Source: Perkinsus olseni (Eukaryota). Taken from it: a stretch of DNA of 20,000 nucleotides. The notes below the pieces were generated by a model. It did not search any database, was not told where the DNA came from, and saw only the letters and a program-made list of their open reading frames with translations. Positions 1-20,000 of this stretch are shown in pieces. Location: the NCBI GenBank assembly GCA_013115125.1, contig JABANN010000092.1:55828-75827 (forward strand). Direction: 5' to 3'. The translations under genes were made by a program, and so were the position numbers. How positions within the stretch are numbered: the first letter of the stretch is position 1; every line of letters starts with the position of its first letter.

Positions 1-577
1 GGGATGACGGTGACACTCAAATGGACGATACTTCATAAGATGCACAATTCATTCGGCTTCTTCATGATGAGCTCGCGTTCTTACCAGTGGCTAATAATAC
101 ACGATCGGAGGCCCAGTAAGCGATCTATCCTCTCCCAGTCGACCCAGCGCAGCGTTGCAACGGTTTCCCGTGACGGGAATCCCGTCGGACTCCAGGTCAA
201 CTGTGGAAGTGATGTGCCGCTCGCCACCTGGGCGGTGTGATCGCAGAATTTCTCTCGAATGCTTCTGCTCGCCGAAGCGCTACTGCGTCTCGCAGTTTGC
301 GCCTCCTGTGATGTTCATACGGACTTCGGGTCGCGAAGTGTTATCAGCTCGCAAACAATGCCCAACAGCCCATACGCATTGGAGCGTCGTCCTTATGGAT
401 CTGCATACCCCTAGCTCACTAGCGTTTCGAACCTTAGCTCATCACCACATGCCTGCCTAGCTCAACGCCACTGCACTCACCATCGTCTGAACTGCTAGAC
501 GTTAGACTATTAGATTATAGAACTACTATTAGACTAAAAATACGCTCCTGCGAAGTGTCTGGCGGTTTTCGTGCAGG

Positions 578-1312
578 ATGTCCATCCCTAGCGAGTACTT
601 GGCAGTGAATTACCCGCTCACAAAAGGGACAGAATCTGATAATTTTCAAGCTAGCACCTGTGAAACAATACCCCAATACGTGAATATCTACACGAACGAT
701 ATGTCATGCTGGTCAGCTCTGAAAGAGGCCGTCTGTATCTCCTTCACTTCTCGTTATGTTCTACTATGGGTATGCTATGTCCTCATCGTAGCTGGTTACT
801 CCATTGCCACCTATTTCTCACAAGCCCATCCAACTGATGCTATCAACGGTTACATTGTGGCAACGTATTTGGTGGTTGTAATAGTTCTACCCCCGCCGCT
901 CATCGTATACTATTCCTGGCAATTGGAAGATGGTCGTAGGCGGAGAGATGAACGGCGGCGGAAGCGGGAACGAGCTGCGGAGACCTTCTCGACTAAATGG
1001 CGGAGTTGGTTAGATACCCACACCAAGGTGGGGCCCTACGAGAAGGTCATGCTTGAGCGAAACGTCTCACGGTCCTCGGACAACACAGACGGCGATGAAG
1101 CTGAATCTTGTTCAATATGTTTGATTGACTTCGAGGAAGGTGACATACTCCGCAATTTGCCTTGTCAACATGTGTACCATGAAGATTGTTTTAACGAGTG
1201 CTTCTCTGAGCTGCCTCGAGGTAAGCACCACAAGTGTCCTATGTGCCGTGCCCGGATTGGTCCTGAGATTCGTGACCACTTGGACGAGATTGGCAATCCG
1301 ATTTCCGCCTGA
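578..1312 (+). CDS. Transmembrane RING-H2 (C3H2C3) E3 ubiquitin ligase, ATL/RNF-like, intronless
   Basis: C-terminal CSIC..F..GD..R.LPCQHVYHEDC...KCPMCR is a RING-H2 pattern. Two hydrophobic segments (YVLLWVCYVLIVAGYSIATYF; YIVATYLVVVIVLPPPLIVYY) are followed by a basic cluster. Confidence 0.9.
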   Translation: MSIPSEYLAVNYPLTKGTESDNFQASTCETIPQYVNIYTNDMSCWSALKEAVCISFTSRYVLLWVCYVLIVAGYSIATYFSQAHPTDAINGYIVATYLVVVIVLPPPLIVYYSWQLEDGRRRRDERRRKRERAAETFSTKWRSWLDTHTKVGPYEKVMLERNVSRSSDNTDGDEAESCSICLIDFEEGDILRNLPCQHVYHEDCFNECFSELPRGKHHKCPMCRARIGPEIRDHLDEIGNPISA

Positions 1313-2518: not shown

Positions 2519-3058
2519 ATCGCTTTCTCCTCTCCATTTGTCCAGTTTGTTTGGACTGTTTAGACCTCACCTTGTCTGACTCCTTCGAGTCCTGTTGTCC
2601 TGAACAGTACATAGTCTTGTGTTGTTCTTAATGATGCTCACTGGGCATGGTAAGTGCGAGAACGGATATCCCAGGCCGTATGCTTCACATCAGAAACAAT
2701 GTTCCCGGGAAACACTTTCCAGTTCCCTTGAGTGGCGACGCTAGTGCTTAGATCACTAGGGGATATTCAATAAGCTGTAGAACCGCTAGCGTGGAAGTTG
2801 GAGAAAAGATAGCGCCAAGCAGAGGAAGTTCAGCGCCGATGAGAGAAAAATTAGCGCCCGTCCGGAGATTGTTCCGCTCGGGAATTCACCGGCCGACGAG
2901 AGTTTTGGGTATGTGACGTTTTGACTTGGGGTAAATCGTTCGCTTTCAGCATGCGCATAATCGTTGTCGTCGTGAGACGGCATACCGCACGCAAGCGCAT
3001 TCCTTTCTCGTGCTTAGCAGACGTCACCGTTCGGTTCCCTGTAGTGTTGTTTTAATTG

Positions 3059-4933
3059 ATGCGTTTTTCCTCAACTACTGCTGCCCTGGCCGCCGTTTTA
3101 GCAGTGCCCGCGTCGGTGACTTGGGCCTGTACGACAGTGGCTGTTTCGAAAGAGGCATCCAGCACCGGTGTAGCTATGCTGGCTCATTCGGCTGATTGCT
3201 TCATTTGCGATTCTAGGGTTGCTCTGGTGCCTGCTCGCGATCACCAGGAAGGTGAGGAGCATGAAGTTTTTGGTATCAATCAACCTTATCCTAGAGCCTA
3301 TAATAGACGTGCTGCCATCTACCTTCCCCCAGCCGGGAAAAATTTTACCGAGCCTAGTGCTAGAATTCCCGAGGTCCCCCGAACGTACGGTATGTGGGAG
3401 TCCAACTATCCCCTTATGAATGAAGAGGGTCTCACAGTTGGAGAATCCAGTACAAGCTCTAAGGTTCCTGGCGGCTTTGGCGTTGATCTTGCAGACCCTA
3501 AAACTGGTCAATACGGCGAGGCCAAGTTCAGTATTAAGGAGCTCATTCGGGTTGGCTTGGAGAGGTGTACAACTGCTGAGTGCGCCATCAGAGAGATGGG
3601 CGCCACAGCTGAGAAGTACGGCTTCTACCCCGAGTCCGTTGGGGCGGGTGAATCCCTCACCGTAGCGGACACTAAGGGCTCCGCTTGGGTTTTCGACATT
3701 AGCCATGACTCTACTGGTAAGTCCGCTATTTGGGCCGCTCAGAGAGTCCCTGCTGGCCACGTGGCGGCTATTGCTAATCAGTACACCATCAAGGAGATCA
3801 AGGAGGATGAGCCTGATAACTACATGTTCTCTCCCAATGTTAAGTCGGAGGCGCTTAAGCTCGGTTTGTGGGACGGTAAAAGCCCGTTCAGTTTTGTCGG
3901 AGCCTATGGTGTGAACACTGTGAAGCCAAGTTACACTAGCATCAGGTTGTGGGCCATTTTCAACCTAGTGGCACCCAACTCTGGCCTGGAGTTCAACATC
4001 GACCCCTTCGAGCTGCCCTTCTCTGTACCAGCGGAGAAGTCCATCACTCGCGAGGACTTGATGAACATCTTCAGAACTAACTACGAGGACACTCCCTTCG
4101 ACATGACCAACGGTATTCTGGCTGGCGTCTATCATAACCCTTACAGGATCGAAGGGGGCGATGGCCTTACTCAGGTCCCCGGTGAGTTCGCTAGGGGCAT
4201 CTCTATTCCCCGTACAACGTACAGCATGCTCGGTTATCCAGACCCCGCTAACCCGGTTGTCTTCTACGGTACCGATCAGCCCAGCTCCAGTGTTTTCGTG
4301 CCGTTCCTCGCCAAGACTCTGAAGGAGGCTTCCGCCAACGATCTGGAGGGCTCTAAGAAGTTGTATTCTTCCTATTATCAACTTGGTAACAGAGCTGACT
4401 TCAGCACCGCCCGAGATAGTGCTTGGTGGGCTTTCGATTTTGTCTCTAACTGGATGAACATGAACTACCAAAACATGTCTGAGCAATACGTCAAGCCGGC
4501 CATCGCCGAGTGGCAGCCGAAGATGATCGCTGCGGCTGATGCTGCCACCACTACAGAGGCAATGGACGCCCAGAGCTCAGTGGTGAAGGCTTGGTGGGAC
4601 TTGTCTGATAAGCTCGTTGTTCGCTACAATGACGGCTACTACAGCTTCCCTGAGTCTGACCCTGAGAAAGTTTTTTACATGGGTTATCCTGCGGACTACC
4701 TAGCGCAGATTGGCTTCAACAAGGATTATATTTACCCCAAGTACGTCCAAGCAGCTGGAACGCCATTACATGCTGATACTATGGTTGAACGTGTTGGCAT
4801 GTCTTACTGGTCGGTTGCAGTGGCTGTGGTCGTGGCGCTGTTAGTGGGCGTCTTTGCTGGACGTGTGTCTACTAAAAAGCAGCGTTCTGTGGTATCCGAT
4901 ACTCAAAAGAGGTTATTGGCATCAGAACATTAA
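3059..4933 (+). CDS. Peptidase family C69 (dipeptidase A/secernin-like Ntn hydrolase), type I membrane protein, intronless
   Basis: Signal peptide ends ..VTWA, followed by CTT..V...AS..G....AHSAD (N-terminal Cys nucleophile). Family motifs MNE.GL.VGES, GESLTVAD...AW, IWAAQRVP.GHV...AN, SAWWAFDFVSNW. C-terminal TM YWSVAVAVVVALLVGVFAG. ATG at 3059. Confidence 0.92.
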   Translation: MRFSSTTAALAAVLAVPASVTWACTTVAVSKEASSTGVAMLAHSADCFICDSRVALVPARDHQEGEEHEVFGINQPYPRAYNRRAAIYLPPAGKNFTEPSARIPEVPRTYGMWESNYPLMNEEGLTVGESSTSSKVPGGFGVDLADPKTGQYGEAKFSIKELIRVGLERCTTAECAIREMGATAEKYGFYPESVGAGESLTVADTKGSAWVFDISHDSTGKSAIWAAQRVPAGHVAAIANQYTIKEIKEDEPDNYMFSPNVKSEALKLGLWDGKSPFSFVGAYGVNTVKPSYTSIRLWAIFNLVAPNSGLEFNIDPFELPFSVPAEKSITREDLMNIFRTNYEDTPFDMTNGILAGVYHNPYRIEGGDGLTQVPGEFARGISIPRTTYSMLGYPDPANPVVFYGTDQPSSSVFVPFLAKTLKEASANDLEGSKKLYSSYYQLGNRADFSTARDSAWWAFDFVSNWMNMNYQNMSEQYVKPAIAEWQPKMIAAADAATTTEAMDAQSSVVKAWWDLSDKLVVRYNDGYYSFPESDPEKVFYMGYPADYLAQIGFNKDYIYPKYVQAAGTPLHADTMVERVGMSYWSVAVAVVVALLVGVFAGRVSTKKQRSVVSDTQKRLLASEH

Positions 4934-5519
4934 ACGACTTTTTGTTCATATTGGGGGTTTTCCTGTGATGGGCGTAGTCGTCGTCGTCAAGTCTCACTGT
5001 TCCATGAGCAGTGCCCTTCACGTAACAACCAACTGTTGCTCCTACTCAAGTTACTCACCTACTGCTGCTAAAGTTGCTACTACCACACCATCAACAACTC
5101 TGTTGACCACCGCTGCCACAGCTTGTTTCGGCTGAGAGTTTGTATTCTACTCTGTTGCTATCGTTGCTGCCTCCTAAGCGTATAGTCGCTTAATTGTAGT
5201 TACCGAAAGTTGCCAGAAAGCTGTCTAGGTCTTGCGTTGTCTTTACGTCACTGGAGTAGGGACGGTGCTGATTGAGATTAGGCGTTGGTTACTTTCCACG
5301 GTACCATGGATGCCGACAGAGGTGCGTCTTATGAGATGGTAGACGAAGTGTCGAAGATGCCTGGCGGCGTTGGAGTGGTAGTAGTGACGGCAATAGCTGC
5401 GGTCTGCAGACAATAGAAATTCTCTCAAGCCTCCTCCCGACACCGCTGCTCGCTCTATCTCAGCGAAATTGGGAACTCCTCCGCTGTGCAATAGCCCTTC
5501 CCTCGAACAGTTTTCTTGG

Positions 5520-6403
5520 ATGTGGCTCATCAACCCCTGCTCTCTTCAGGGAGCCTTCATGTGGTACGCCTTCTGCATCATAGCGTTACTACTGGTAGTC
5601 CGACTGGCATTGGGATTGACTGATATGAACCAAGGTGAGCAGTTGCGGTGTCGTGAGTGAAGCGGAACCCCTCGATCAGCCGCCGGTCAGCAACCGCAAC
5701 AGCAGCAGCAGCAGCGGGGCTCGTATCGACGGAAGAAAAAAGTCGGGAAGAGGCCCAGGAAAAAATCACCCCGTCAACGTCGCCTGTCGATAGAACTCAA
5801 GAGTGCCCTCGCCGCAGCTCTTGCTCTCCTACGATTGTTGTATGAGTCGTACAAGGCAGTTGTGTCGCGTCACGCTCATCGAGGAACGCTGAGGGCCAAG
5901 GACAGGAGCGGGCAACGAAAGTTGACCCGAAGAAGTGAAGAGAGGGTCGAGCACGTCGATGGTGGCAAAGTGGTGGATATGGATGAGGCTAGTGATAGTT
6001 CTGTGGAGTCCGAATCAAGCACTGCTCTCGAGGGAAGGGGTGCAGCGCCCGGGGTGTCCTCGCTCAATAACGACGTCGCCGTACAGGCAAGTGGTGATCA
6101 TCATCATCATGAGACTGTGGATGGTGGATGGATAACCGTTGAGAGGCCCTACCGACGACAGCAGTCGAATGTTTCTGATAGTACATCCTGTAGCAGTAGT
6201 GGTAGAAATGCAGTTGTATTTGGACGATACAACCGAGGAGGGGGAGGGGGACGCCCCACCGGCCTATCACGTCAGCAACGCAGCACCATCAGTGGCAAGC
6301 GTGTGGCAGGGAATCAGCCTCGTAACAGTGAGTCTGGCCTGAGCCTGAGTCCTGCGGTACTACAAGAGCCAGGTAAGCCGAATCGTTCGCTTCAGCACCG
6401 GCT

Positions 6404-6437
<34 letters not shown>

Positions 6438-6871
6438 CCGAGCAGGGCTGCAGGCAGTCCACGCATTTACAGGTGATGATCCACTGAGCGGCGGAGCGAT
6501 GCTCCAGTGCTACGGATGTATGATCAGGGTTGAAGAGCCCAAGGACCACCTCTCCCCGTACATGAGATACTCTTCGGAGACTACCAAGCTTGTAGACACT
6601 CGGAGGTCTTCCTCCCTTAAGGAGCTGTTATCTTCCGCAGCATCGTCGTCTCAAGTACTACGTCGACCGCTGCCGGCCTTCCTTGCGGCGGTTGTTGTTT
6701 TTTCAGGACGATATGCTACCGTATGATTCCCTGATTCTGGGGAATTCCTCTTCCACGGCCCCTAGCGAGTGTAACCAGGTCGATGAGTCTCCGACGAGCC
6801 CATTGGAGTGCTGCCAAAGCGCCGAAGCACGGTACTGTCCTGAGTGGGTGCAGAAGCTCATAGAGGACAGC

Positions 6872-6904
<33 letters not shown>

Positions 6905-7426
6905 AGTCAAGGCCCGGGACTGGATCGTCAGGATCAGCATCAAGAACCGTCTAGACCCGAAGCGGTGGAACTCCACTCAGGCGTCCCAGAGTTCTCCCCT
7001 GCCCTCTCACTAGTTTATAAAACGCTCCAGCCCAGCGGCATTTGGGTCGGCCTCAACCATTTGGCTCGTAAGATAGGTTATGCAGCTGGTGGGTGGGAGA
7101 TGATTTGGAATCTTGCGGACGTCGGTTGGATAGAGCTCAGTGACTGTGGCCTCTACTGTCGTCTAGGCGATGCCTGGGGCTCCTATGAGGCCTTCTCGGA
7201 TCCGGCAAGCACCAGCAGCAGCTCCTCTGCACCACGTGAATGTGGGGACATAGAATCCTATGCCGTGTACAGAGGGGGCAGTCTCGACTCCGAGCCTGAT
7301 TGGCAGCTCTGTGACGGTGAAGAAACGTACGAGCTGCCACGGGGCCGCCAGCCCTGGCAGTGGGGCGCACCGCCACAAAGGGGCTTTGCGAACCCCCCGG
7401 CGATGGTTATTGGACTGTTGAAATAG
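5520..7426 (+). CDS. Spliced hypothetical protein X: N-terminal TM, K/R-rich segment, disordered polyQ/polyD region, winged-helix-like Cys domain, acidic tail (5' end uncertain)
   Basis: GT-AG introns at 5635-5679, 6473-6527 and 6655-6706 join ORF fragments 5469+, 5835+, 6499+ and 6683+ in frame. TM MWYAFCIIALLLVVRLALGL; basic RRKKKVGKRPRKKSPRQRR; domain at about 7010-7165. Confidence 0.7.
6405..6434 (+). repeat. (CAG)10 microsatellite encoding polyQ
   Basis: Ten perfect CAG units in frame in gene X. A shorter (CAG)5 lies at 5700-5714. Confidence 0.97.
6872..6904 (+). repeat. (GAT)11 microsatellite encoding polyD
   Basis: Eleven perfect GAT units in frame in gene X. Confidence 0.97.
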
Positions 7427-7781
7427 TGAGTATCTGAAATCTAGGGTCTTACCGTCATCATCATTACCCTTCCCTCCTGAAGTACTATGAGATAGTCGTG
7501 GATTTCCCATTGCTACGTCTACTCCGTTCTTGGTTGCTGTTACTACTGGACGAAGACTACGACGTAGTTGTCACGCCCATTGACTTCTCGTACGTAAGCT
7601 TATTATCATGAATGTCGACTAGTTTCAATGCCCCCTCAGCGTGGCGTTGTACCCCTCCGTATCCTATGTCATAGGTCATGCGCCTTCAGTCCCGCTTCTA
7701 GTTCTTCCCGTCAGGATGCCCTTTACTTGTGGCCGCATCCGTCATCGCCTTCGCTGGTGGTACTCGGAAGGAACTGTGGGC

Positions 7782-8716
7782 ATGGACCATTGCGAGCTGG
7801 CATTGAATGTATTCTTTTTGTGCCTTCTCATTGCCTTTATAGCCCACGTTATCGCCAACCTCTTGCCAACGATTCGGGTGGCTCTCGATACGACACTCGA
7901 AGCCTCCAAGCTCCTCGGTATCGCCGAAGGCTTGCTGTGGATCATACCAGGCTGCTTGACGTTCACTCTTGGGCTGTGCGGTATCGCTGTTATCATGTGC
8001 GGCCTCACGGTAGGAGTTCTCTTCATGAGTCGCAGGGATGAGAGAGGCTCAACCAATGATGACGAAGCTGTCGCTGGAGGACCTGGGAGGAGGGTGATGC
8101 GCGACCATCCTCCTCGTACAGTGGATCGTAAGAAAAGGAAGTCGAAGTCTCACCGGTGAGCTCCAAGTTGGAATCTCCCAACTACCAGCGCGCGTTATAG
8201 CTTGCGTCTCGCAGGAAAGCCGATCGCCATAGGGCCTGTAGGAGAAGAGCCTCCTCGAAGGGTCGCTGTCGCCTCAGCTGCCTCAGCTGTCGATTCGACG
8301 ATATCTGCGACTACATGCAGCCTCGAGGCACCTGGGTGTCGGTTCTTTGGTTGAGGGCCCGTCTCGACTCTCTGGGCTCCCAAGCTCTCGACCACATGCT
8401 CAGCGTTGGTTGGCTGGAGATTACTCCATGCGGGAAGTACTGTAGGGCTTATCCTGACGGTAGCCAGCCACAGGAGAGGGCCTCGCCGCCACCGCCGCCG
8501 ACGCCTGACCATGGCGTGCCTACATTCAACCTGGCAAGAGATGACTCTGAATCCTGCGTCCACGACTGGGACATTGATTCCTGCAACGAACTTCTAGACG
8601 ACGAGGGTGCTGCTCCTCCTCCTCTCCTGCAAGAGGATGCCTGTGGACCATCCTCAAGACACGATGAGGACTCCTCCGAGAGCAGCTGGGAGGTGTGCGA
8701 GTCTTTGTTGCTGTGA
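7782..8716 (+). CDS. Spliced hypothetical protein Y, paralogue of X: multi-TM N-terminus, K/R-rich segment, CRLSCLSC, winged-helix-like Cys domain, acidic tail
   Basis: Intron 8156-8214 (cg|gtgag...tcgcag|g) joins the TM ORF (7641+ frame) in frame to the 8315+ ORF. Start is ATG 7782 or 7716. Confidence 0.72.
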
Positions 8717-8977
8717 TGATGATGATCTCAGAAATGCATGATGTGCAGCAGCAGCCTGCTGTTGCTGCTGCTGCTAGTGGAATGATGTGATAATAAATAT
8801 ATTAAAACTGCTCCCAAGCTTCATGATAAATGATAATCGACCCACCACTACCACACAGTCGGATACGTTGTTAATACTATCATATCAGTCAATAATGAAT
8901 TTATGAACTATCATTGTCCCGTTGCGTTGTAGTGCTACTGGTTATACACCTACTCCGGATCCAGGCGTCGTGCTTTC

Positions 8978-10759
8978 ATGACGTGCCGACCACTACTGCG
9001 GGTGCTGAGAAGAGGCTTCTGCTCCTCTCCCTCCTCTACTCAGCCTCCGAGCGCGTCGACTGGAGTAATGTCGACCGTACGAGAGGCCGTACCAACAGTA
9101 GCCTCTGTTCGGCACGACGGTATGCTGCTGCACCCAGAAGTCATAGGGCAAGTAGGGCCACCATGGGTCCGATGGAATGGGTCCGACTGTCGAGCTGGTC
9201 CTCCCACTACAGGTTGTCAAGAACTGGGACATCCACAGCTATTCGCTTCTTGAAGTCGCACCATGGATGAACGCCTCCCCTGCGCTACAGGAGCGGTAGG
9301 AGAAGCTTTTCAATTGGGGGTCGATACGTCAAGCTCGACAGGTTTGCTAATACGCTGGACATTTTTCAACTGTGTGACCCCACGGGCAAGGTGATGGGCC
9401 ATTATGATCGGGGGGTATCAGCTCTCTTGAGGACCACGCTCAAGCTCGGTGATAATAACACAGTACCGTGTGGCCTGATCCTGATGTGAGAGGTGGGGCC
9501 TCTTCGAGAGGCGAAGATGGCGAAGTTAGGTACGAGACACAGGAACATGCAACCAATGAGTTTTCGAGGCTCCAGATGAGGACCATGACGGAGAGGTGGA
9601 AGAGGGGTATACAGTCACGAGGGGTAGTGGCCTCTTGGACCGTGTAGTTACGCCGATGAATGGCTGAACGAGCTGCAGCCAGGAGAGGGAGAGGAGGCCC
9701 TCCCGGGAGTCATACTCACAGTACACCACTATGACCCTCAAGTGACGCATCCCTCACAGTACGAGATAGAACGGAGGGACGGCATATCTAAGTGATGGTC
9801 CTCTATGGAGGGGACGCTCCTGTAAATGTCCGCCTTCCAGGCTGGTGTGTGTTGTACGGGCGCTGCATGTGAAGTACTTCTGGCCACGAGAAGCCAGCGA
9901 GGGGCAGGTAGGCTACCCTAGAGTTACCTCCTGGTCACTCGGAAGGCTACAGGTCATCCAACTGCCGCCGGGACAAACCCTCGGCACATCAGATGACTAC
10001 AATATAGTTACGGATCTCCAGACTTGGGAGAGCGGGGAGAAGTTCAGAGAGATGCCTCAACAGTACTACTGGCATCACTGGCTGAGGGAAGAGACTTCTT
10101 TGCAGAGATAGCGAGGATCCGGAGGACTTCTTCAGAGTTCTTCCGTGGGTGAAGGACCGAACTAAAAGTGATTTCGTCAGAGCGACGTACGCTTATGTGA
10201 AGAGAGATGATGCTGGCGGTGAGAGGTGGGGACCATAGGAGGCCTTCATTGCTCAATGCAGAGATTACGTCGGTCCTGGCTGCCGTGTCTGTGACGGGTG
10301 ACGTCGACACGAAGAGGCCGGCACGATTGGTGATGTCCTCTCCTTACGTGGACACGGAGTCTGTGTCGCCTGAGGAGGCTGAGCAGGCTCTGGACGCAGT
10401 CCTCCAGCACGTCTTCGCTAAGCACCGGAGGAGCGTGTAATAGCAGCCCCTCGGTGTGTTGCGCTGACTGTGCTCCTGCTCCTCTTCAGGGGAGTGGTCC
10501 TGTACGACTCCAAGGACACCTTCTATGAGTTCGCTGAGGAATACATGCTCCCGCGACACCGGTATTGGACAGAGAAAGAGGCCGGCATATGTCTCACTGC
10601 GGGTACTTCGGATCGGTGCTCAGCTCGAGCCACTTCTCCTTGTTGTCAGTCCCGGTCCAGATGCCGGTGCCCGCCCAGGAGTGCCTCCTCCACTCCCCTT
10701 ACGTCATACCTGCCGAGTTCCTCAGTTTTGAGACCTACTTCAAAACCCCGACCGGCTGA
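8978..10759 (+). CDS. Multi-exon hypothetical protein with putative mitochondrial presequence
   Basis: N-terminus MTCRPLLRVLRRGFCSS is Arg-rich, acid-free and has an RRGF-CS cleavage-like site. Consistent introns at 9908-9952, 10219-10261, 10437-10489 and 10603-10649; ends ..FLSFETYFKTPTG*. Exons at about 9370-9680 are not resolved. Confidence 0.6.
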
Positions 10760-10864
10760 CGATGGCCCTCATCATGTGGGAAATGTTTCTGTGCTACCTT
10801 TGTTGCCGCGTTACCATCAGTATTACTCCTACTACCACGCCCCGCTTACAGGGTTGGATTACGC

Positions 10865-12407
10865 ATGCGGCAGCTCATTCTCGACACCGTTGCTGGCCGA
10901 AGAGTCTCTTCCGTCGTGGCCTGCGTCCTCGGCCTGTTGCTACTTGAGTACGTCGTCTGTCGATTCATCCTCGCTAGGGTGTCGTACACTGAGATAGACT
11001 GGAAGGCCTACATGCAGGAGGTAATCATGACGTGGTCATCATCCTTCACTGGCATCTCTGTGGCTCAGGTAGAAGGCTGGGTGGTGGATGGTGATACGAA
11101 CTACTACCATCTCAAGGGGGGCACCGGCCCCTTGGTGTACCCCGCAGCCTTCCTCTACCTCTACGCGGCCCTGAGGTGGATTGCCGGTGGGGACGGCTCA
11201 GACATTGCAGCGGCTCAGCAGGTGCTCCCCGACCACTCTTGTCTCGTCCAGCCAATTTCTGTAGGTTTTCTTCTGGCTCTACCTGGCCACTGTTGCCGTA
11301 GTACTCACGTGCATGGCGTTCGCTGGAAGGAAGAAGTCGATCCCGCTGCTCTACTACGCACTCGTGTGTTTCTCCAGACGGACACACAGTATCTTCCTCC
11401 TGCGCCTTTTCAATGACGCCTGGTAAACCCCCGACCAGCGGCGGTCCTCATGGTGGTAATCTCTCAGGTGCGTGGCCCTAGTCCACCTCTCCGTGCTCCT
11501 GATGGTAGTCCTCGGCTACCGTCGGTTGGGGTGCATAGTGTACAGCTTGGCAGTTGGTGTGAAGATGAATGCCTTCCTCTGGGCTCCGGGGATCTTCGTC
11601 TTTCTGTTGGGACCCGGAATCCCTACTTGGCGGAGATTCTTCTCGACCCTGTGCTTCGTTGCTGTATGGTGCGGCATACCGCAGGTGGGAGGTCTCTCCA
11701 TGTCGACTGGCCAGCCCTGCTGCCCTCAGATCCTCATCGGCCTGCCCTTCCTGACCACCCACCCCATAGCGTACCTTCATAAGTCCTTCGAGCTCTCCCG
11801 AGTGTTCTTCTATAAATGGACTGTCAACTTCAAGTTTTTGCCCGAGGAGGTCTTCGTATCTCCCGAACTTGGCCTTCTCCTGCTCGCCATGACCATCATA
11901 CTGTGGTTGTGGTTCGCCTTCCGCAAATGGCTCCCTTCCTGGGTATCGCAAGACCCTCTGCTGGTACTCTACAGCAGCAACTTCATCGGTGTGGCGATGT
12001 CCCGAACGATACACTATCAGTTTTATTGCTGGTGAGCGAATCGCCATTTCATACTGGCGCCGCCAAGCTTCCTCTCGATGCCCACAGGTATTCGTTCACC
12101 ATACCGTATCTGCTGTGCCGCAGTCAGTGGACGAGGAATGCCAGTATTGATTTCGTCATCAAGATGGCCGTATGGGGCTCGATCGAGTAAGCATGAGATC
12201 TTCCGTCAAGCTACGAGTTGTCCCGCTGACAGATACGCCTACAACGTGCCACCTGCGTCGGAGTGCCGGAGCCTTCCCAAGGGAACCGACTTCTGTGACA
12301 ATCCTGCGACCCCCCTTAGCAGTGCTCTCCTTCAACTCGTTCATGTGGCTCTACTAGTGGGGCTTGCGAGGGCTCAGGTCGGGAAAAAGGGTGCGAAACT
12401 TGAGTAG
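10865..12407 (+). CDS. ALG3: Dol-P-Man:Man5GlcNAc2-PP-Dol alpha-1,3-mannosyltransferase (GT58)
   Basis: Motifs YTEIDWKAYMQEV, G.TGPLVYPA, SRRTHSIFLLRLFND, SLAVGVKMN, FFYKWTVNFKFLPE, SNFIG...SRTIHYQFYCWY. Introns 11021-11068, 11222-11264, 11423-11467, 11685-11729, 12032-12087 and 12187-12232 are all GT-AG and restore the frame. Confidence 0.96.
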
Positions 12408-15490: not shown

Positions 15491-17909
15491 TCAGTTACCG
15501 TTGTTCAGTTTCTCCTCAGCATCATATAGGTCGAGCCTGTCTATTATACTCCGGTCTGGCGGATTGCCTCGCGGCCGCCAGCCAAGGGTTGGGTTAAAGG
15601 TCTGCATGCAACACTTGCGAAGATTTCAAGATTACTCGGGGCCCCCGAGTCGGGGGGACTGAGCACTCCTCACCTGCGCCTGCTTCTTGAAACCGTCCAC
15701 TGAAATAAGAACGAAAACACGTTATCAAACTCCCAGAGTATAAAATTACCGGAGGAAGACACACCGCTGTCGCTGCTGCTGGCACTTCCCTCATTGGGAT
15801 CCCGGGAAAGTAGCCCCCGTAGTCGTTCCACTTCGCTCCGTAGCGAGTCAGCTTCCGTGCGCAGTTCCTCATTTTTCGTCAACAGATCTTCCTTTTCCAC
15901 CATCATCGCATCCAGTGCGTCCGTCGCAGCCTTTGACACCCCCACCATTCTCTCCCGGGACTCCCTCTGCGCCTGCGCCGAAGCGTGCATATCGTCAACC
16001 CTAGCCATTCCACTACACTGAGCTGCCAGCTATTGAAGCTCGATGCCCAAAGTGAAACTGTGAGGTATTCTGCAGTGATCGTCTCCGCGGCTCGAGTCAT
16101 CCTCATCAGACTTCGCTGAGCGTTCGCTGTAGCTTCTCCTACTTCAGCAGCTAGGGGAGGCCGAGAAATGCCGGGCGAGCGCTGTTGGTACCTCTATTTA
16201 CTTCTGTTTTCCTCTAGCTGTCGGATGATGATCTCTCTCGAAGTGGCATGGAACCATGCCCTTACCACGCTCGACAGGAGGTAGGTGTCAGCCTGTCGGG
16301 TTGACTGCTCCACCATGAGATGTGCTATCGACTTCTGCGACACTGCCAACTGCCGCCGTAGCTCCAGCTGATGTGAGGACTGTGAGCATGAAAGAGTGGG
16401 CTGCTGTTCACCTCCCTCTGCTCTATCCCCAGCAACAGTGCTTCGGTCTTCCACCCATCAAAGACCTGCCTCTTCAAACGCTCCACTCCTTTATCGTTGG
16501 CGTGATCGAAGAAGCCGTCCGCCAGCGCAAGGCGGGACTCCTGGGCCACCGAATACACACTCTGAACAGAGGTGGTGGTGGAGGCCATGGCCGATTGATC
16601 TTCGGTTGGAGTACATCCAACTGCCTCTCGAACACTTCCTCCCTCGCCCATGTTCTCCAAGCCATCAGGACCAGGTGTACGGTCCAAACTGATGTTGTGA
16701 CCTCCAGTAGCCGAGAGCTCTGAGTGAACCCGAGGAGGCTCTCACGGGTTGCAATGTAGCCGCGATATGACCAGGCAATCCACTTGCTGCATCAGCTTGG
16801 TCTCAGCCTGCTGGGACCTCGCTGCCTGCTCCGTGGTGACTTGTTGAAAGAGTCTACTAGCATCCACTTCTCTTTTCCAGCCACGGAAAGTGACTTTCAG
16901 CAGGGCCTGCGGAGGGTCGCGTGCTGGAGGAATGCTCCACATCCTTCCACCTCCTTCTCGAGGACGATATGGGCGGCTCCCTTCATCACGGTGAAGTACT
17001 TATCTCCCCACTCACGTATATTGTTCTGCTTCCTCTCCACCGCCAACTGATCGGAGGGACTAGCTTCACCGCTACAATCCAGATAGGAGTTCACCTTGAG
17101 CCTATCGATCGCCATCTTAGTCTTAGCATAGCTCCTCCACGAGTAGAAAGCATCGCCTTGTATGCCACGCTGCTGGGCTCCATTAGAGCGTACTATAAAG
17201 CTGAGGCCCCAACTGGTGAGAGCTGCCCGTCGGCGAACTTCGTTATTCATCATGGTCTGAGCTCGCTGTCCGAAGGCAGCAACAGCTGCTGCTGCTGCTT
17301 CCACTACCTCCTGGAGCCGAGCTGCCTTCCGCCGCTCTTCCTCTACCCTGGCCTGCCGGGTCACATCCCACCACGCAGCGAGAATGAACCCGGTCATCCT
17401 TGCCGACTCGGCCCGTATAAAGAAGTTACTGAACTACCAAAGGCGGCCGCCGCCGACGCTATTGGGAATGATCGCTACGAGCCTTACCCTTTGAAGGAGC
17501 TCTTCGTGATGCATTGATGCATCTCGCACAGCGTCATCCTCGTCCTTAGCCCGGCGGACCCTCCCTACCTCACTCTGCCAAGACCGCAGTACCATACGTA
17601 ACCATGCCTGAGGGGAACTCCTGACCACAACTACAGGCCCCTACTACCGCCTACTCTCTTGGACCACAGCCACTCCTTGCATTCTGCCATAGCTTGCGCA
17701 TGCGGATTGACAGGGCCTCCTCCCTCCTCAGCATTCAAGTCGTCCTCATTCACGATGTCGCCTTCTTCAGAGCTGGTCATCGCAGCCCCGACTATATCAT
17801 ACCCGTAGTCTAGTAGGTCCTGTAGAACTTCCTCCCCAAACTTGTTTAGGTTCAGGGAGGCTATGCTCCCATCAGCAGAGACGGTCTTCCGGCGTTGGAC
17901 CCTGCTCAA
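15491..17909 (-). CDS. Multi-exon helical/coiled-coil protein with Sfi1-like (centrin-binding-type) F/LxxW repeats; 5' end unresolved and may extend to about 18.2 kb
   Basis: Frame-consistent GT-AG introns at 17621-17664, 17434-17487, 17047-17094, 16907-16950, 16741-16783, 16562-16614, 16368-16411, 16151-16201, 15973-16016, 15700-15749 and 15602-15673. Repeats RMVLRSWQ, FILAAWWD, DAFYSWRS, KVTFRGWK, HLVLMAWR, RQVFDGWK, SVVRAWFH, SSFNSWQL. C-terminal coiled coil EKEDLLTKNEELRTEADSLRSEVERLR. Confidence 0.72.
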
Positions 17910-18491: not shown

Positions 18492-20000
18492 CTACTCCTG
18501 ATAGGCCCCGCTGCCTAGCCTATGAGTGTCGCTACTACTCGAAGAGCTTCGCGTTGGTGTATCACCATCATTACCAGAATCACTCTCTCCCACGGAGCCC
18601 TCTTCCCTCCTGGTCAGCTCATCGCTATACGCCTTCAGCATGGGCAATATCACGGTCGATCGAGCGTCACCGTCGGTTTGGTACCTTCCGGCCAGGTCGA
18701 GCGGGGTCATCCTGGCAGAGGACGCGGGTCGAGGAGATGCTGTCTGCCTTGTCATACCGTGTTCGTGATGGAGATGCTATCTCTGCTTGAAGGAGGCTCT
18801 CACTACGTTCAACGCCAAGTTCCTTCTCAGTGGATATGACAACCTCACAGCAGCGGAGAGAGGTACCCTCGACTGCATAGTGGAGGCAGGTCCACCCGTA
18901 CCGATCTCTAAGAGACGGCCAGTACTAGTGCCAGCGTTAGTCGACTGTCACTACCGTTCTTCCAAGGCCTCAGCCCCCAGCCTGTGAAACAGGAGGTCTA
19001 ATGAAAGCGGAAAGTCGTAGAGTGCAGCTGTCATGGCTAATGTTTGGCCGGAAGCATTCAACGGGCCTGCCGGGATGTGGGGTGGACACCAAGACGATTC
19101 GGCAGATGTGTGGTATCACGGTTTGCGCGCACGAGCTTTCCGCGAGAAAGTAGTCCAATCCCATGGCTGATAGTTTTATCGTCCTTTCCAGCGGCCATCT
19201 CGGCCATCAATCTGTCTCTGCGCCGCTCGCCTGCCTTATTCATGGCAAGTAGGCATCTGTAACGTCAACGGGCCTCATCTACCCCAGGGTTCCCAAGCGT
19301 AGTACCTCCCCGCCGATTGTATCTGTACTATTGCCAGCAGGCGTCGCTGAGCTTCTTGCCGTGCTGCATATCCTTTCCAACAGGCCGCAATAGTAACCTC
19401 AGCCCTGCACCTTCGACGTTGATCGTACAGCGGTCGCCACCAGTTCTACGGAGGCAGGAGCTAATCTGATGCACATTGGCCGCAAGGCAGATACCTGTAT
19501 CCTAGCAGCTGCTCGGTACGGTCGTAGAGGATCCGCTAGCCGCCGCAGCCTTTCCTGCTGGGCCTTCTCCTCTGATCTCCACGCTACGAGAGGTAGGGCG
19601 AGGTAACACAGCCATCTTGGTATATCATCTGTTGCTACTACAGTACTAACCTGAGGATGCTCATGTGATACTCTGAGACGTTCGAGGAGCGTGAACCTTT
19701 TCGGATAGGGTGTTTCCCTCACGAGTGATCAACTTATAGGATGCCAGCCATAGCGCCGAGGTGAGGATGGTAGTGGCTGCTATTAGGAGGAAGATTATGA
19801 GTAGGAGGCATGAGGCAGCAAGGGACGACATGCAAACAAGCCAAGTACACTCCCAACGCAATGTCGTATCGCCGTGAGCTTCATGATAGAGTTGAATGGT
19901 GAACCCAAACCCACTGGATGCGACACAACTGTAGTGTTCCCGGCTTGACCAAACCGTTCACTAGAGACAGCAGGAAGCTCGCCACCCTTAGAACTCGACG
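18492..20000 (-). CDS. Membrane protein with three IQ calmodulin-binding-type motifs and three ankyrin repeats (5'-partial)
   Basis: Introns 19446-19494, 19257-19305, 19067-19119, 18908-18954 and 18712-18757 give AAARIQNWWRPLY..EVTIAACWKGYAARQ..AIVQIQSAGRCLLA, then NASGQTLAMTAALYDFPLSLDLLFHRLGA, DRYGWTCLHYAVEGTSLRCCEVVI and RMTPLDLA. The hydrophobic exon at 19723-19913 is joined tentatively via introns 19673-19722 and 19616-19650. Confidence 0.78.

What the first reader, a model, noticed from the sequence alone, without database searches (positions are those of the whole stretch)
5520..8716. Tandem pair of membrane-tethered proteins sharing an unnamed winged-helix-like domain
Seen: two adjacent, otherwise dissimilar spliced genes share a domain of about 50 aa. 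X (about 7010-7165) reads LVYKTLQPSGIWVGLNHLARKIGYAAGGWEMIWNLADVGWIELSDCGLYCRL. Y (about 8300-8450) reads DICDYMQPRGTWVSVLWLRARLDSLGSQALDHMLSVGWLEITPCGKYCRA. Consensus: QPxGxWV-x4-L...VGW[IL]ExxxCGxYCR. Both proteins have the same order: TM, K/R cluster (NLS-like), linker, domain, acidic tail. Inference: the helix-strand-helix-helix-hairpin pattern is winged-helix-like. TM + NLS + winged helix recalls inner-nuclear-membrane chromatin tethers (Man1/Src1 type) or membrane-tethered transcription factors. I do not recognise the family.
Basis: partly seen in the sequence, partly recalled or inferred. Interest (0 to 1): 0.78.

Follow-up and report, generated by a model that had tools for sequence, protein, structure and literature searches.

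The report
Membrane-anchored winged-helix protein pair in Perkinsus
Two neighbouring genes of the shellfish parasite Perkinsus encode membrane-anchored proteins that share a small, so far unnamed winged-helix domain; they probably act as docking points on the nuclear envelope or ER, but what they bind is untested.

Summary
X and Y share a ~55-aa domain (31% identity; 0 of 200 shuffles reach the score), and both copies are predicted to fold as compact winged helices (pLDDT 89 and 83). RNA contigs from three studies give six exons (583 aa, start 5306) and confirm both proposed introns. The order TM, K/R cluster, disordered linker, domain, tail is kept in P. chesapeaki, where the genes are also adjacent. 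True relatives were found only in Perkinsus-type records (7 of 9 hits among 1.84 billion proteins). It is not Src1/Man1: HeH and MSC are absent, and a real Src1-like gene lies on another contig. La and Z-alpha signatures are absent too. Helix 3 of X is acidic with two invariant tryptophans, which argues against a classical DNA-reading transcription factor. Best guess (0.4): ER/nuclear-envelope adaptors whose winged helix is a docking module. Rivals: an ER mRNA anchor (0.25) or a released transcription regulator (0.15). New lineage-restricted family of a common fold; function untested.

The parts
5280..5282 (+). Spliced-leader acceptor (AG 5280-5281); X mRNA begins at 5282
   Evidence: Loose end of 10 letters before 5280 in 1 of 3 runs (X4) matches the P. 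marinus leader printed in PMC9399869; by record arithmetic X1 record 2 starts at 5282
5306..5377 (+). X exon 1 (ATG 5306; short acidic N-terminus)
   Evidence: Joint 5376/5549 in 3 of 3 runs; open frame; same start in public model P0002
5550..5634 (+). X exon 2, single TM / signal anchor (aa 26-47, 5553-5618)
   Evidence: Joints; hydropathy 2.4; TM kept in P. chesapeaki and P. marinus
5680..6327 (+). X exon 3: K/R cluster (5724-5783), amphipathic segment (5787-5852), conserved linker block (6069-6215) with GW-x-x-V and a basic-then-serine-rich stretch
   Evidence: 13 K/R in 20 aa; block 50% identical across three species against 3-9% in flanking linker; coordinates
6373..6472 (+). X exon 4 (poly-Q from a CAG repeat)
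   Evidence: Loose end mapping to 6375 and joint 6469/6525; repeat
6528..6654 (+). X exon 5
   Evidence: Joints in 3 of 3 runs
6707..7426 (+). X exon 6: conserved short helix motif (6833-6862), poly-D (6872-6904), domain, tail, stop
6989..7180 (+). X winged-helix domain (aa 439-502); helix-3 tryptophans at 7094 and 7106
   Evidence: AlphaFold2 pLDDT 88.8; fold searches; 77-83% identity to orthologues against 37-48% for the whole protein
7298..7315 (+). X tail motif D-W-Q-L-C, like the S-W-E-V-C motif in Y's tail
   Evidence: A [DSG]W[EQR][VLK] match in the tail of 6 of 7 proteins scanned
7716..8155 (+). Y exon 1: TM1 (7797-7865), second hydrophobic stretch (7911-8030), start of K/R cluster
   Evidence: Contigs from 7701 without a joint; hydropathy; two TMs also in P. 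chesapeaki P0010
8215..8716 (+). Y exon 2: rest of K/R cluster, Cys-rich lead-in (8267-8290), domain, Pro-rich hinge, acidic tail with two Trp motifs, stop
   Evidence: Joint in 3 of 3 runs; X4 record 11 joins 7867-8154 to 8214-8598; X1 record 6 runs unspliced to 8908
8288..8452 (+). Y winged-helix domain (aa 172-226)
   Evidence: AlphaFold2 pLDDT 82.9; best match Rpa2 winged helix, Z 8.3, rmsd 3.1, 61 aligned

Best explanation
X and Y are old tandem paralogues, made as separate mRNAs, that encode integral proteins of the ER/nuclear-envelope membrane. Shown: gene structure, order of parts, conservation, predicted fold. Inferred: (1) the hydrophobic segments are uncleaved anchors, and the basic cluster behind the last one puts the whole C-terminal part on the cytoplasmic or nuclear side; (2) the basic cluster also serves as an import signal, so the proteins most likely sit at the inner nuclear membrane; (3) the disordered linker carries short conserved binding and phosphorylation motifs and holds the domain away from the membrane; (4) the winged helix is a docking module for a protein or single-stranded RNA partner, as in RPA32C, cullin WHB and the Heh1/Lem2 winged helix, not a sequence-specific DNA reader. 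They would work like the C-terminal half of Src1/Lem2 without being members of that family.
For: Splicing puts TM and domain in one frame. The order of parts is kept in P. chesapeaki X and Y and in P. marinus X. The P. chesapeaki genes have adjacent locus tags on a contig of the same length. 12-13 K/R in 20 aa follow the last TM in 5 of 5 full-length proteins. The domain is the most conserved part of X (73% identical in all three species). Domain pI is 4.1-6.5 in 4 of 4 X copies, and their helix-3 region has 0-1 basic and 2-3 acidic residues plus two invariant Trp. Y's best structural matches are Rpa2 WH (Z 8.3) and cullin WHB (Z 7.3); their role as protein-docking domains is recalled. A membrane-anchored Heh1 winged helix recruits Chm7 (PMC6461442 passages), and Heh2's binds pore components (PMC9512039 passage).
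Against: No localisation or binding data. Fold matches are tied (Z 7-8) and X's best rows are DNA- or RNA-binding domains (MarR, IclR, SelB), so the fold does not pick a function. Y domains have pI 6.5-9.2 with an invariant Arg in helix 2, and the wing Arg is invariant in 8 of 8, which fits nucleic-acid contact. In Heh1/Heh2 the import signal lies N-terminal of the TM, here C-terminal. The genome already has a Src1-like gene.
Confidence: 0.4

Rival explanations
1. ER-surface mRNA or ribosome anchors of the p180/kinectin type: the basic cluster binds RNA without specificity and the winged helix, with aromatic helix-3 residues, adds RNA or ribosome recognition.
For: [quoted passage not shown] RNA-binding winged helices are among the top fold matches (SelB Z 8.2, ZBP1 Z 7.5). 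A degenerate Z-alpha-like RNA binder with Trp at the Tyr177 place is described (RBP7910; PMC10523160 section 11). A Perkinsus La-related gene shows similar short words at strand 1 and in the wing.
Against: Profile comparison with 6 Perkinsus La motifs is not significant (P 0.12, probability 0.5%). No RRM, decapeptide repeats or long coiled coil. The X domain is not basic.
Confidence: 0.25
2. Membrane-tethered transcription regulators: a signal triggers cleavage, the basic cluster imports the fragment, the winged helix binds DNA and the acidic Trp-containing tail activates.
For: All parts are present in a workable order. Many top fold matches are DNA-binding regulators. The acidic Trp motif in the tail is shared by X and Y. 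A serine-rich block behind a basic motif could be a regulated phosphorylation site (inference). A review notes that an unknown transcription-factor family may remain to be found in dinoflagellates (PMC5029490 passage).
Against: Helix 3 of X has no conserved basic residue and is net acidic. Known cases that I recall (ATF6, SREBP, NAC, Spt23) carry the DNA-binding part N-terminal of the TM. No cleavage site was identified.
Confidence: 0.15
3. X is a membrane-anchored receptor for selective autophagy or a similar motif-driven scaffold; its linker motif GW-x-x-V binds ATG8.
For: The motif fits an xLIR pattern (recalled) in 3 of 3 species, inside a conserved block of a disordered linker. The genome has two ATG8 loci.
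Against: 38% of shuffled X sequences contain such a match (753 of 2000). Y has no such motif outside its folded domain in P. olseni. The tail motifs lack the final hydrophobic residue. It does not explain the domain.
Confidence: 0.08
4. X's hydrophobic segment is a recessed signal peptide, and X is exported to act in the host cell nucleus, like disordered apicomplexan effectors (recalled).
For: One N-terminal hydrophobic segment, a basic cluster, disorder with short conserved motifs, genus-restricted.
Against: Y has two or more TMs in both species with a full N-terminus, so the family plan is integral-membrane. The RRL word after X's basic cluster is not kept in the other two species. The domain is strongly conserved rather than fast-evolving.
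Confidence: 0.06

Closest known systems
Src1/Heh1/Heh2, Lem2, Man1 (HeH/LEM-MSC inner nuclear membrane proteins)
   Same: Membrane anchor, basic cluster, long unstructured region and a C-terminal winged helix (PMC6461442 passages).
   Different: No HeH or MSC match in X or Y; no large luminal domain; basic cluster after the TM. A separate gene on G000:C3028 has HeH over the cut-off, a weak MSC match, a second TM and a C-terminal domain; that domain does not align to the X/Y profile (P 0.56).
RPA32/Rpa2 C-terminal winged helix; cullin WHB; MCM C-terminal winged helix
   Same: Compact three-helix, short-wing fold; best match for Y (Z 8.3, rmsd 3.1, 61 aligned); RPA32C Z 7.0 for X.
   Different: 10-18% identity, Z tied with unrelated winged helices; no OB fold or cullin body; these are soluble proteins.
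Z-alpha domain (ADAR1, ZBP1, PKZ) and trypanosome RBP7910
   Same: Same topology; Z 7.5 (X) and 6.9 (Y). X has Trp in helix 3, as RBP7910 does.
   Different: No Asn-x3-Tyr on helix 3 and no Thr-Pro-Pro-x-Trp wing in 8 of 8 sequences (signature from PMC10523160).
La motif (La/LARP)
   Same: Winged helix; similar short words at strand 1 and in the wing in one Perkinsus LARP gene; Foldseek rank 17 for X, TM 0.46.
   Different: Lacks the first La helix and the three inserted helices (PMC4288179 passage; models); no RRM; profile match not significant.
p180/RRBP1 and kinectin
   Same: Short N-terminus, single TM, lysine-rich region, long cytoplasmic part.
   Different: No decapeptide repeats or coiled coil; has a folded winged helix; no sequence link was tested.

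Membership tests
Winged-helix fold | H1-S1-H2-H3 followed by a two-strand wing | tested here: met
   Predicted for X and Y (alignments of only 7-8 sequences; 1 of 5 Y models at pLDDT 58.8); best rows are winged helices at Z 7-8.3
Src1/Man1/Lem2 | N-terminal HeH/LEM domain | tested here: not met
   No match in 8 of 8 proteins; X has 25 residues before its TM; the genome's one HeH match is on another contig
Src1/Man1/Lem2 | Two TMs around a luminal MSC domain | tested here: not met
   X has one TM; Y's loop is about 15-25 aa; the only MSC signal in the genome is on C3028
Src1/Man1/Lem2 | C-terminal winged helix homologous to the MSC winged helix | tested here: inconclusive
   Fold shared; no profile match to the genome's own Src1-like C-terminal ORF (P 0.56), but that side was one sequence
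Src1/Man1/Lem2 | Inner nuclear membrane location | not testable with these tools
   No localisation data
La motif | First helix with the conserved aromatic pocket residues, plus three inserted helices | tested here: not met
   The Q-x-E-[FYW]-[YW] helix seen in 6 of 6 Perkinsus La motifs has no counterpart in alignment A3; models have three helices
La motif | Adjacent RRM1 | tested here: not met
   No RRM in Pfam scans; low-complexity tail follows the domain
La motif | Common ancestry of the winged-helix core | tested here: inconclusive
   hhalign P 0.12; best HMM E 0.046 among 6 sequences; three of the six rest on predicted splicing
Z-alpha | Asn173 and Tyr177 on helix 3; Thr191, Pro192, Pro193, Trp195 in the wing | tested here: not met
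   Absent in 8 of 8 sequences in any register (signature); no PF02295 match in the genome
RPA32 C-terminal domain | Sequence match to PF08784 and position behind an OB fold | tested here: not met
   No Pfam match; no genome match at E 1; no OB fold in X or Y
OST-HTH/LOTUS | Match to PF12872 | tested here: inconclusive
   3 of 3 weak genome matches lie elsewhere; no match for X or Y; distant kinship not excluded
Membrane-tethered transcription factor | Regulated proteolytic release and sequence-specific DNA binding | not testable with these tools
   Only indirect: non-basic helix 3 in X
p180/kinectin-type ER mRNA anchor | Short luminal N-terminus, one TM, basic region | tested here: met
   X in three species; description
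p180/kinectin-type ER mRNA anchor | Decapeptide repeats and long coiled coil | tested here: not met
   Sequence shows neither; only CAG and GAT repeats in the window

The most novel reading that the evidence does not exclude
X and Y are a Perkinsus-specific pair of membrane-tethered gene regulators with a Notch-like orientation: anchored by the N-terminus, released by cleavage, and reading nucleic acid through a new winged-helix family whose Trp-bearing helix 3 recognises an unusual structure such as left-handed or single-stranded nucleic acid. That would be a membrane-to-nucleus signalling route in the sister group of dinoflagellates.
Probability: 0.15. Interest if true: 0.75.

Novelty: new variant of a known kind. 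Interest (0 to 1): 0.42.

Why it matters
Perkinsus is the sister lineage of dinoflagellates and keeps ordinary nucleosomal chromatin (PMC5029490 passage), and few regulators of its nucleus are described. A conserved, expressed, genus-specific pair of membrane-anchored winged-helix proteins gives a concrete candidate for a lineage-specific nuclear-envelope or ER adaptor that exists alongside a normal Src1. If it is a released regulator it would be a new signalling route. As it stands it is a new small family of a very common fold, two genes in this genome, with no functional data. No paper naming five of its public identifiers or describing such a Perkinsus protein turned up in the open-access library. 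The work also corrects gene models: three public P. olseni models fuse Y to the next gene.

Tried and rejected
Family scans: Pfam gave only AbiEi_3_N, below cut-off, for 3 of 7 domain members (best E 0.054); NCBIfam 1 of 8 at E 0.15. PDB sequence searches with both profiles gave only chance rows. P0012 and P0013, 2 of the 9 hits, were dropped: both are repeat proteins (7 and 5 stretches; P0013 is named as Rhizobium, P0012 is unnamed) and I judged them by eye to match through short words. ESM Atlas: best 0.85 (X) and 0.89 (Y), under the 0.9 mark; the named neighbours of Y are small winged helices, leads only. No relatives in viral contigs (0 of 55 pattern matches) or metagenome contigs (0 of 594, X domain only); viral fold search gave no match at E 0.001. 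La origin: attractive by eye, not significant; no La chain is among the 50 rows listed, which does not exclude it. The La homologue search returned only 4 Perkinsus proteins, so the La profile was shallow. Complex prediction of X domain with Y domain: no verdict (0.00, 0.00; alignments not used), neither for nor against binding. Raw-read run X23 laid 0 reads, so strand, ends and expression level were not measured. The fusion of Y with the next gene in P0007-P0009 was rejected: the three models leave Y by three different continuations, and contigs run unspliced through the stop; a rare spliced form is not excluded. A plastid-targeting reading of TM plus basic region was considered; I saw only a search listing and did not test it. 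No supplementary files were read; Perkinsus proteome or transcriptome tables could bear on expression and location.
Full report
Setting. The X domain is 99-100% identical to three public Perkinsus olseni proteins, so the window is P. olseni-type DNA. Its neighbours are ordinary genes: a RING-finger protein, a C69 peptidase and ALG3.

Checking the observation. The two domain ORFs align at E 2e-8. With the spliced proteins the match is 33.9 bits over 50 residues, and 0 of 200 shuffles of Y reach it (maximum 25.0); no other alignment between X and Y is better than E 2.4. In the own genome each copy finds itself and the other and nothing else (2 of 2 candidates each).

Gene structure. Four runs were laid on 4900-9100; one (X23) gave no reads, and three from different studies gave contigs. 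Only X4 is on record as RNA, but all three show the same five GT-AG joints. They confirm introns 5635-5679 and 8156-8214 and add 5378-5549, 6473-6527 and 6655-6706. A sixth intron, 6328-6372, appears as a loose end in 3 of 3 runs whose letters map to 6375. The six-exon model opens at 5306 and gives 583 residues without an internal stop; public model P0002 has the same structure. A 10-letter loose end at 5280 in X4 matches the leader printed in PMC9399869 (passages), and X1's contig starts at 5282. No single contig spans X, because pieces break at the CAG and GAT repeats; continuity rests on the open frame and on orthologues. Y has two exons and 313 residues. One X4 contig joins its second hydrophobic stretch to the domain, and an X1 contig runs unspliced through the stop to 8908. 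X contigs end near 7620 and Y contigs begin near 7701, so these look like separate mRNAs, though contigs cannot prove ends.

Anatomy. X: 25 residues, one TM (26-47), 13 K/R in 20 residues, an amphipathic segment, about 320 low-complexity residues, poly-D, domain (439-502), tail. Y: TM (28-50), a 40-residue hydrophobic stretch (66-105), 12 K/R in 20 residues, a Cys-rich lead-in, domain (172-226), a proline hinge and an acidic tail. In X the domain is 73% identical across three species, while linker stretches are 3-10% identical, apart from three short blocks at 40-50%.

Distribution. HMMER over 1.84 billion representatives with a 7-sequence profile gave 9 hits at E 0.001. Seven carry the domain: five are named Perkinsus proteins and two are unnamed Logan records, one of which clusters at 90% with a P. 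marinus protein. The other two hits are repeat proteins that I dropped by eye. P. chesapeaki X and Y have adjacent locus tags and the same longest-contig length. The two Logan records also share a contig length, which suggests but does not show a third tandem pair. X-to-Y identity is 25-33% in every pairing, against 60-93% within Y and 70-86% within X, so the duplication predates the species split. Scans of viral and metagenome contigs found nothing.

Fold. AlphaFold2 gives helix, short strand, helix, helix, hairpin for both copies (pLDDT 88.8 and 82.9), from shallow alignments. Foldseek finds no match at E 0.001. VIA-align ranks winged helices at the top. For X: MarR (Z 8.3, rmsd 2.5, 63 aligned), TtgV and SelB (8.2), ZBP1 (7.5). 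For Y: Rpa2 WH (8.3, rmsd 3.1, 61 aligned), cullin WHB (7.3), ZBP1 (6.9). These rows are tied and at 10-20% identity, so they give the fold and not the family. That the listed proteins are winged helices is partly from titles and partly recalled.

How it may work. The basic cluster behind the last TM implies that everything C-terminal faces the cytoplasm or nucleoplasm (positive-inside rule, established knowledge). The domain does not look like a classical DNA reader in X: pI 4.1-6.5 in 4 of 4 copies, helix-3 region with 0-1 basic and 2-3 acidic residues, and two invariant Trp four residues apart. By a recalled Z-alpha register these Trp sit on the outward face; I could not measure that. Y is more basic (pI 6.5-9.2), with an invariant Asp on helix 3 and an invariant Arg in helix 2, and all eight sequences keep the wing Arg. 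I therefore favour a docking role for protein or single-stranded RNA, at the nuclear envelope (0.4). [quoted passage not shown] The ER mRNA-anchor reading (0.25) rests on the p180-like opening (PMC3362647, passages) and on RNA-binding winged helices among the matches. A released transcription regulator (0.15), an ATG8-binding receptor (0.08; the motif is kept in 3 of 3 species but arises in 38% of shuffles) and an exported effector (0.06) follow. None of these steps is shown.

Comparison with known families. Src1/Man1: X and Y have no HeH or MSC match, and the genome holds a proper candidate on C3028, with HeH over the cut-off and an MSC-like exon 2.8 kb downstream; its C-terminal ORF does not align to the X/Y profile. 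La: a Perkinsus LARP gene shows similar words at strand 1 and in the wing, but the profile comparison with six Perkinsus La motifs is not significant (P 0.12), and the pocket helix, inserted helices (PMC4288179, passages) and RRM are missing. Z-alpha: the binding residues listed in PMC10523160 (passages and section 11) are absent, although trypanosome RBP7910 shows that a Trp variant can be linked to RNA binding. RPA_C and OST-HTH models do not match; PMC2848206 mentions Perkinsus only in a figure's species key (passages).

Novelty. A search for five public identifiers found 0 papers. Perkinsus with 'transcription factors' and 'winged helix' found 0; Perkinsus with 'winged helix' found 3, of which 2 were listed: one is the OST-HTH paper and the other I saw only as a listing on viral genes in Symbiodiniaceae. 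Of 97 papers with two of 'membrane-tethered transcription factor', 'winged helix' and 'protist', the 12 listed titles show no such protein. The library lacks most subscription papers, and no supplements were read.

Verdict. A real, expressed, conserved pair; a new Perkinsus-restricted winged-helix family in a membrane-anchored arrangement that no tested family matches. The fold is common and the function is open, so interest is moderate (0.42); the boldest reading, a released regulator, has probability 0.15.

Noticed in passing
G000:C3028:5509-10036 (L018): A Src1/Man1-like gene: HeH over cut-off, weak MSC match in a Cys-rich exon, a second TM and a C-terminal domain.
   Followed up: partly
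window 8693-10760: Public models P0007-P0009 fuse Y to the downstream gene by three different continuations; RNA contigs end Y near 8908. The downstream protein has no Pfam match.
   Followed up: partly
P0015 and P0006 (P. marinus): P0015 carries X's C-terminal half twice, the first copy with a cut-off domain (real duplication or assembly error). P0006 is a second X-like protein on another scaffold whose model lacks the TM.
   Followed up: no
window 6069-6215, 6833-6862, 7370-7423: Three conserved short blocks in X's disordered parts (40-50% identical in all three species against 3-10% around them); partners unknown.
   Followed up: partly
window 7716-8130: Y's membrane-side region differs strongly between P. 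olseni records (P0007 against P0008, P0009) while the domain is 92-94% identical.
   Followed up: no
L008 (G000:C1382), minus strand: La-related gene whose first helix has two Trp in place of the usual two Tyr, read through one or two in-frame inserts that look like introns.
   Followed up: partly
window 533-1312, 3056-4933, 10760-12035: Ordinary neighbours: membrane RING-finger protein, C69 peptidase with a C-terminal TM, ALG3 mannosyltransferase.
   Followed up: no
window 15670-16029 and 18667-18924, minus strand: A coiled-coil exon and an ankyrin-like exon, both below Pfam cut-offs.
   Followed up: no
G000:C2370 and G000:C2662: Two ATG8 loci in this genome.
   Followed up: no
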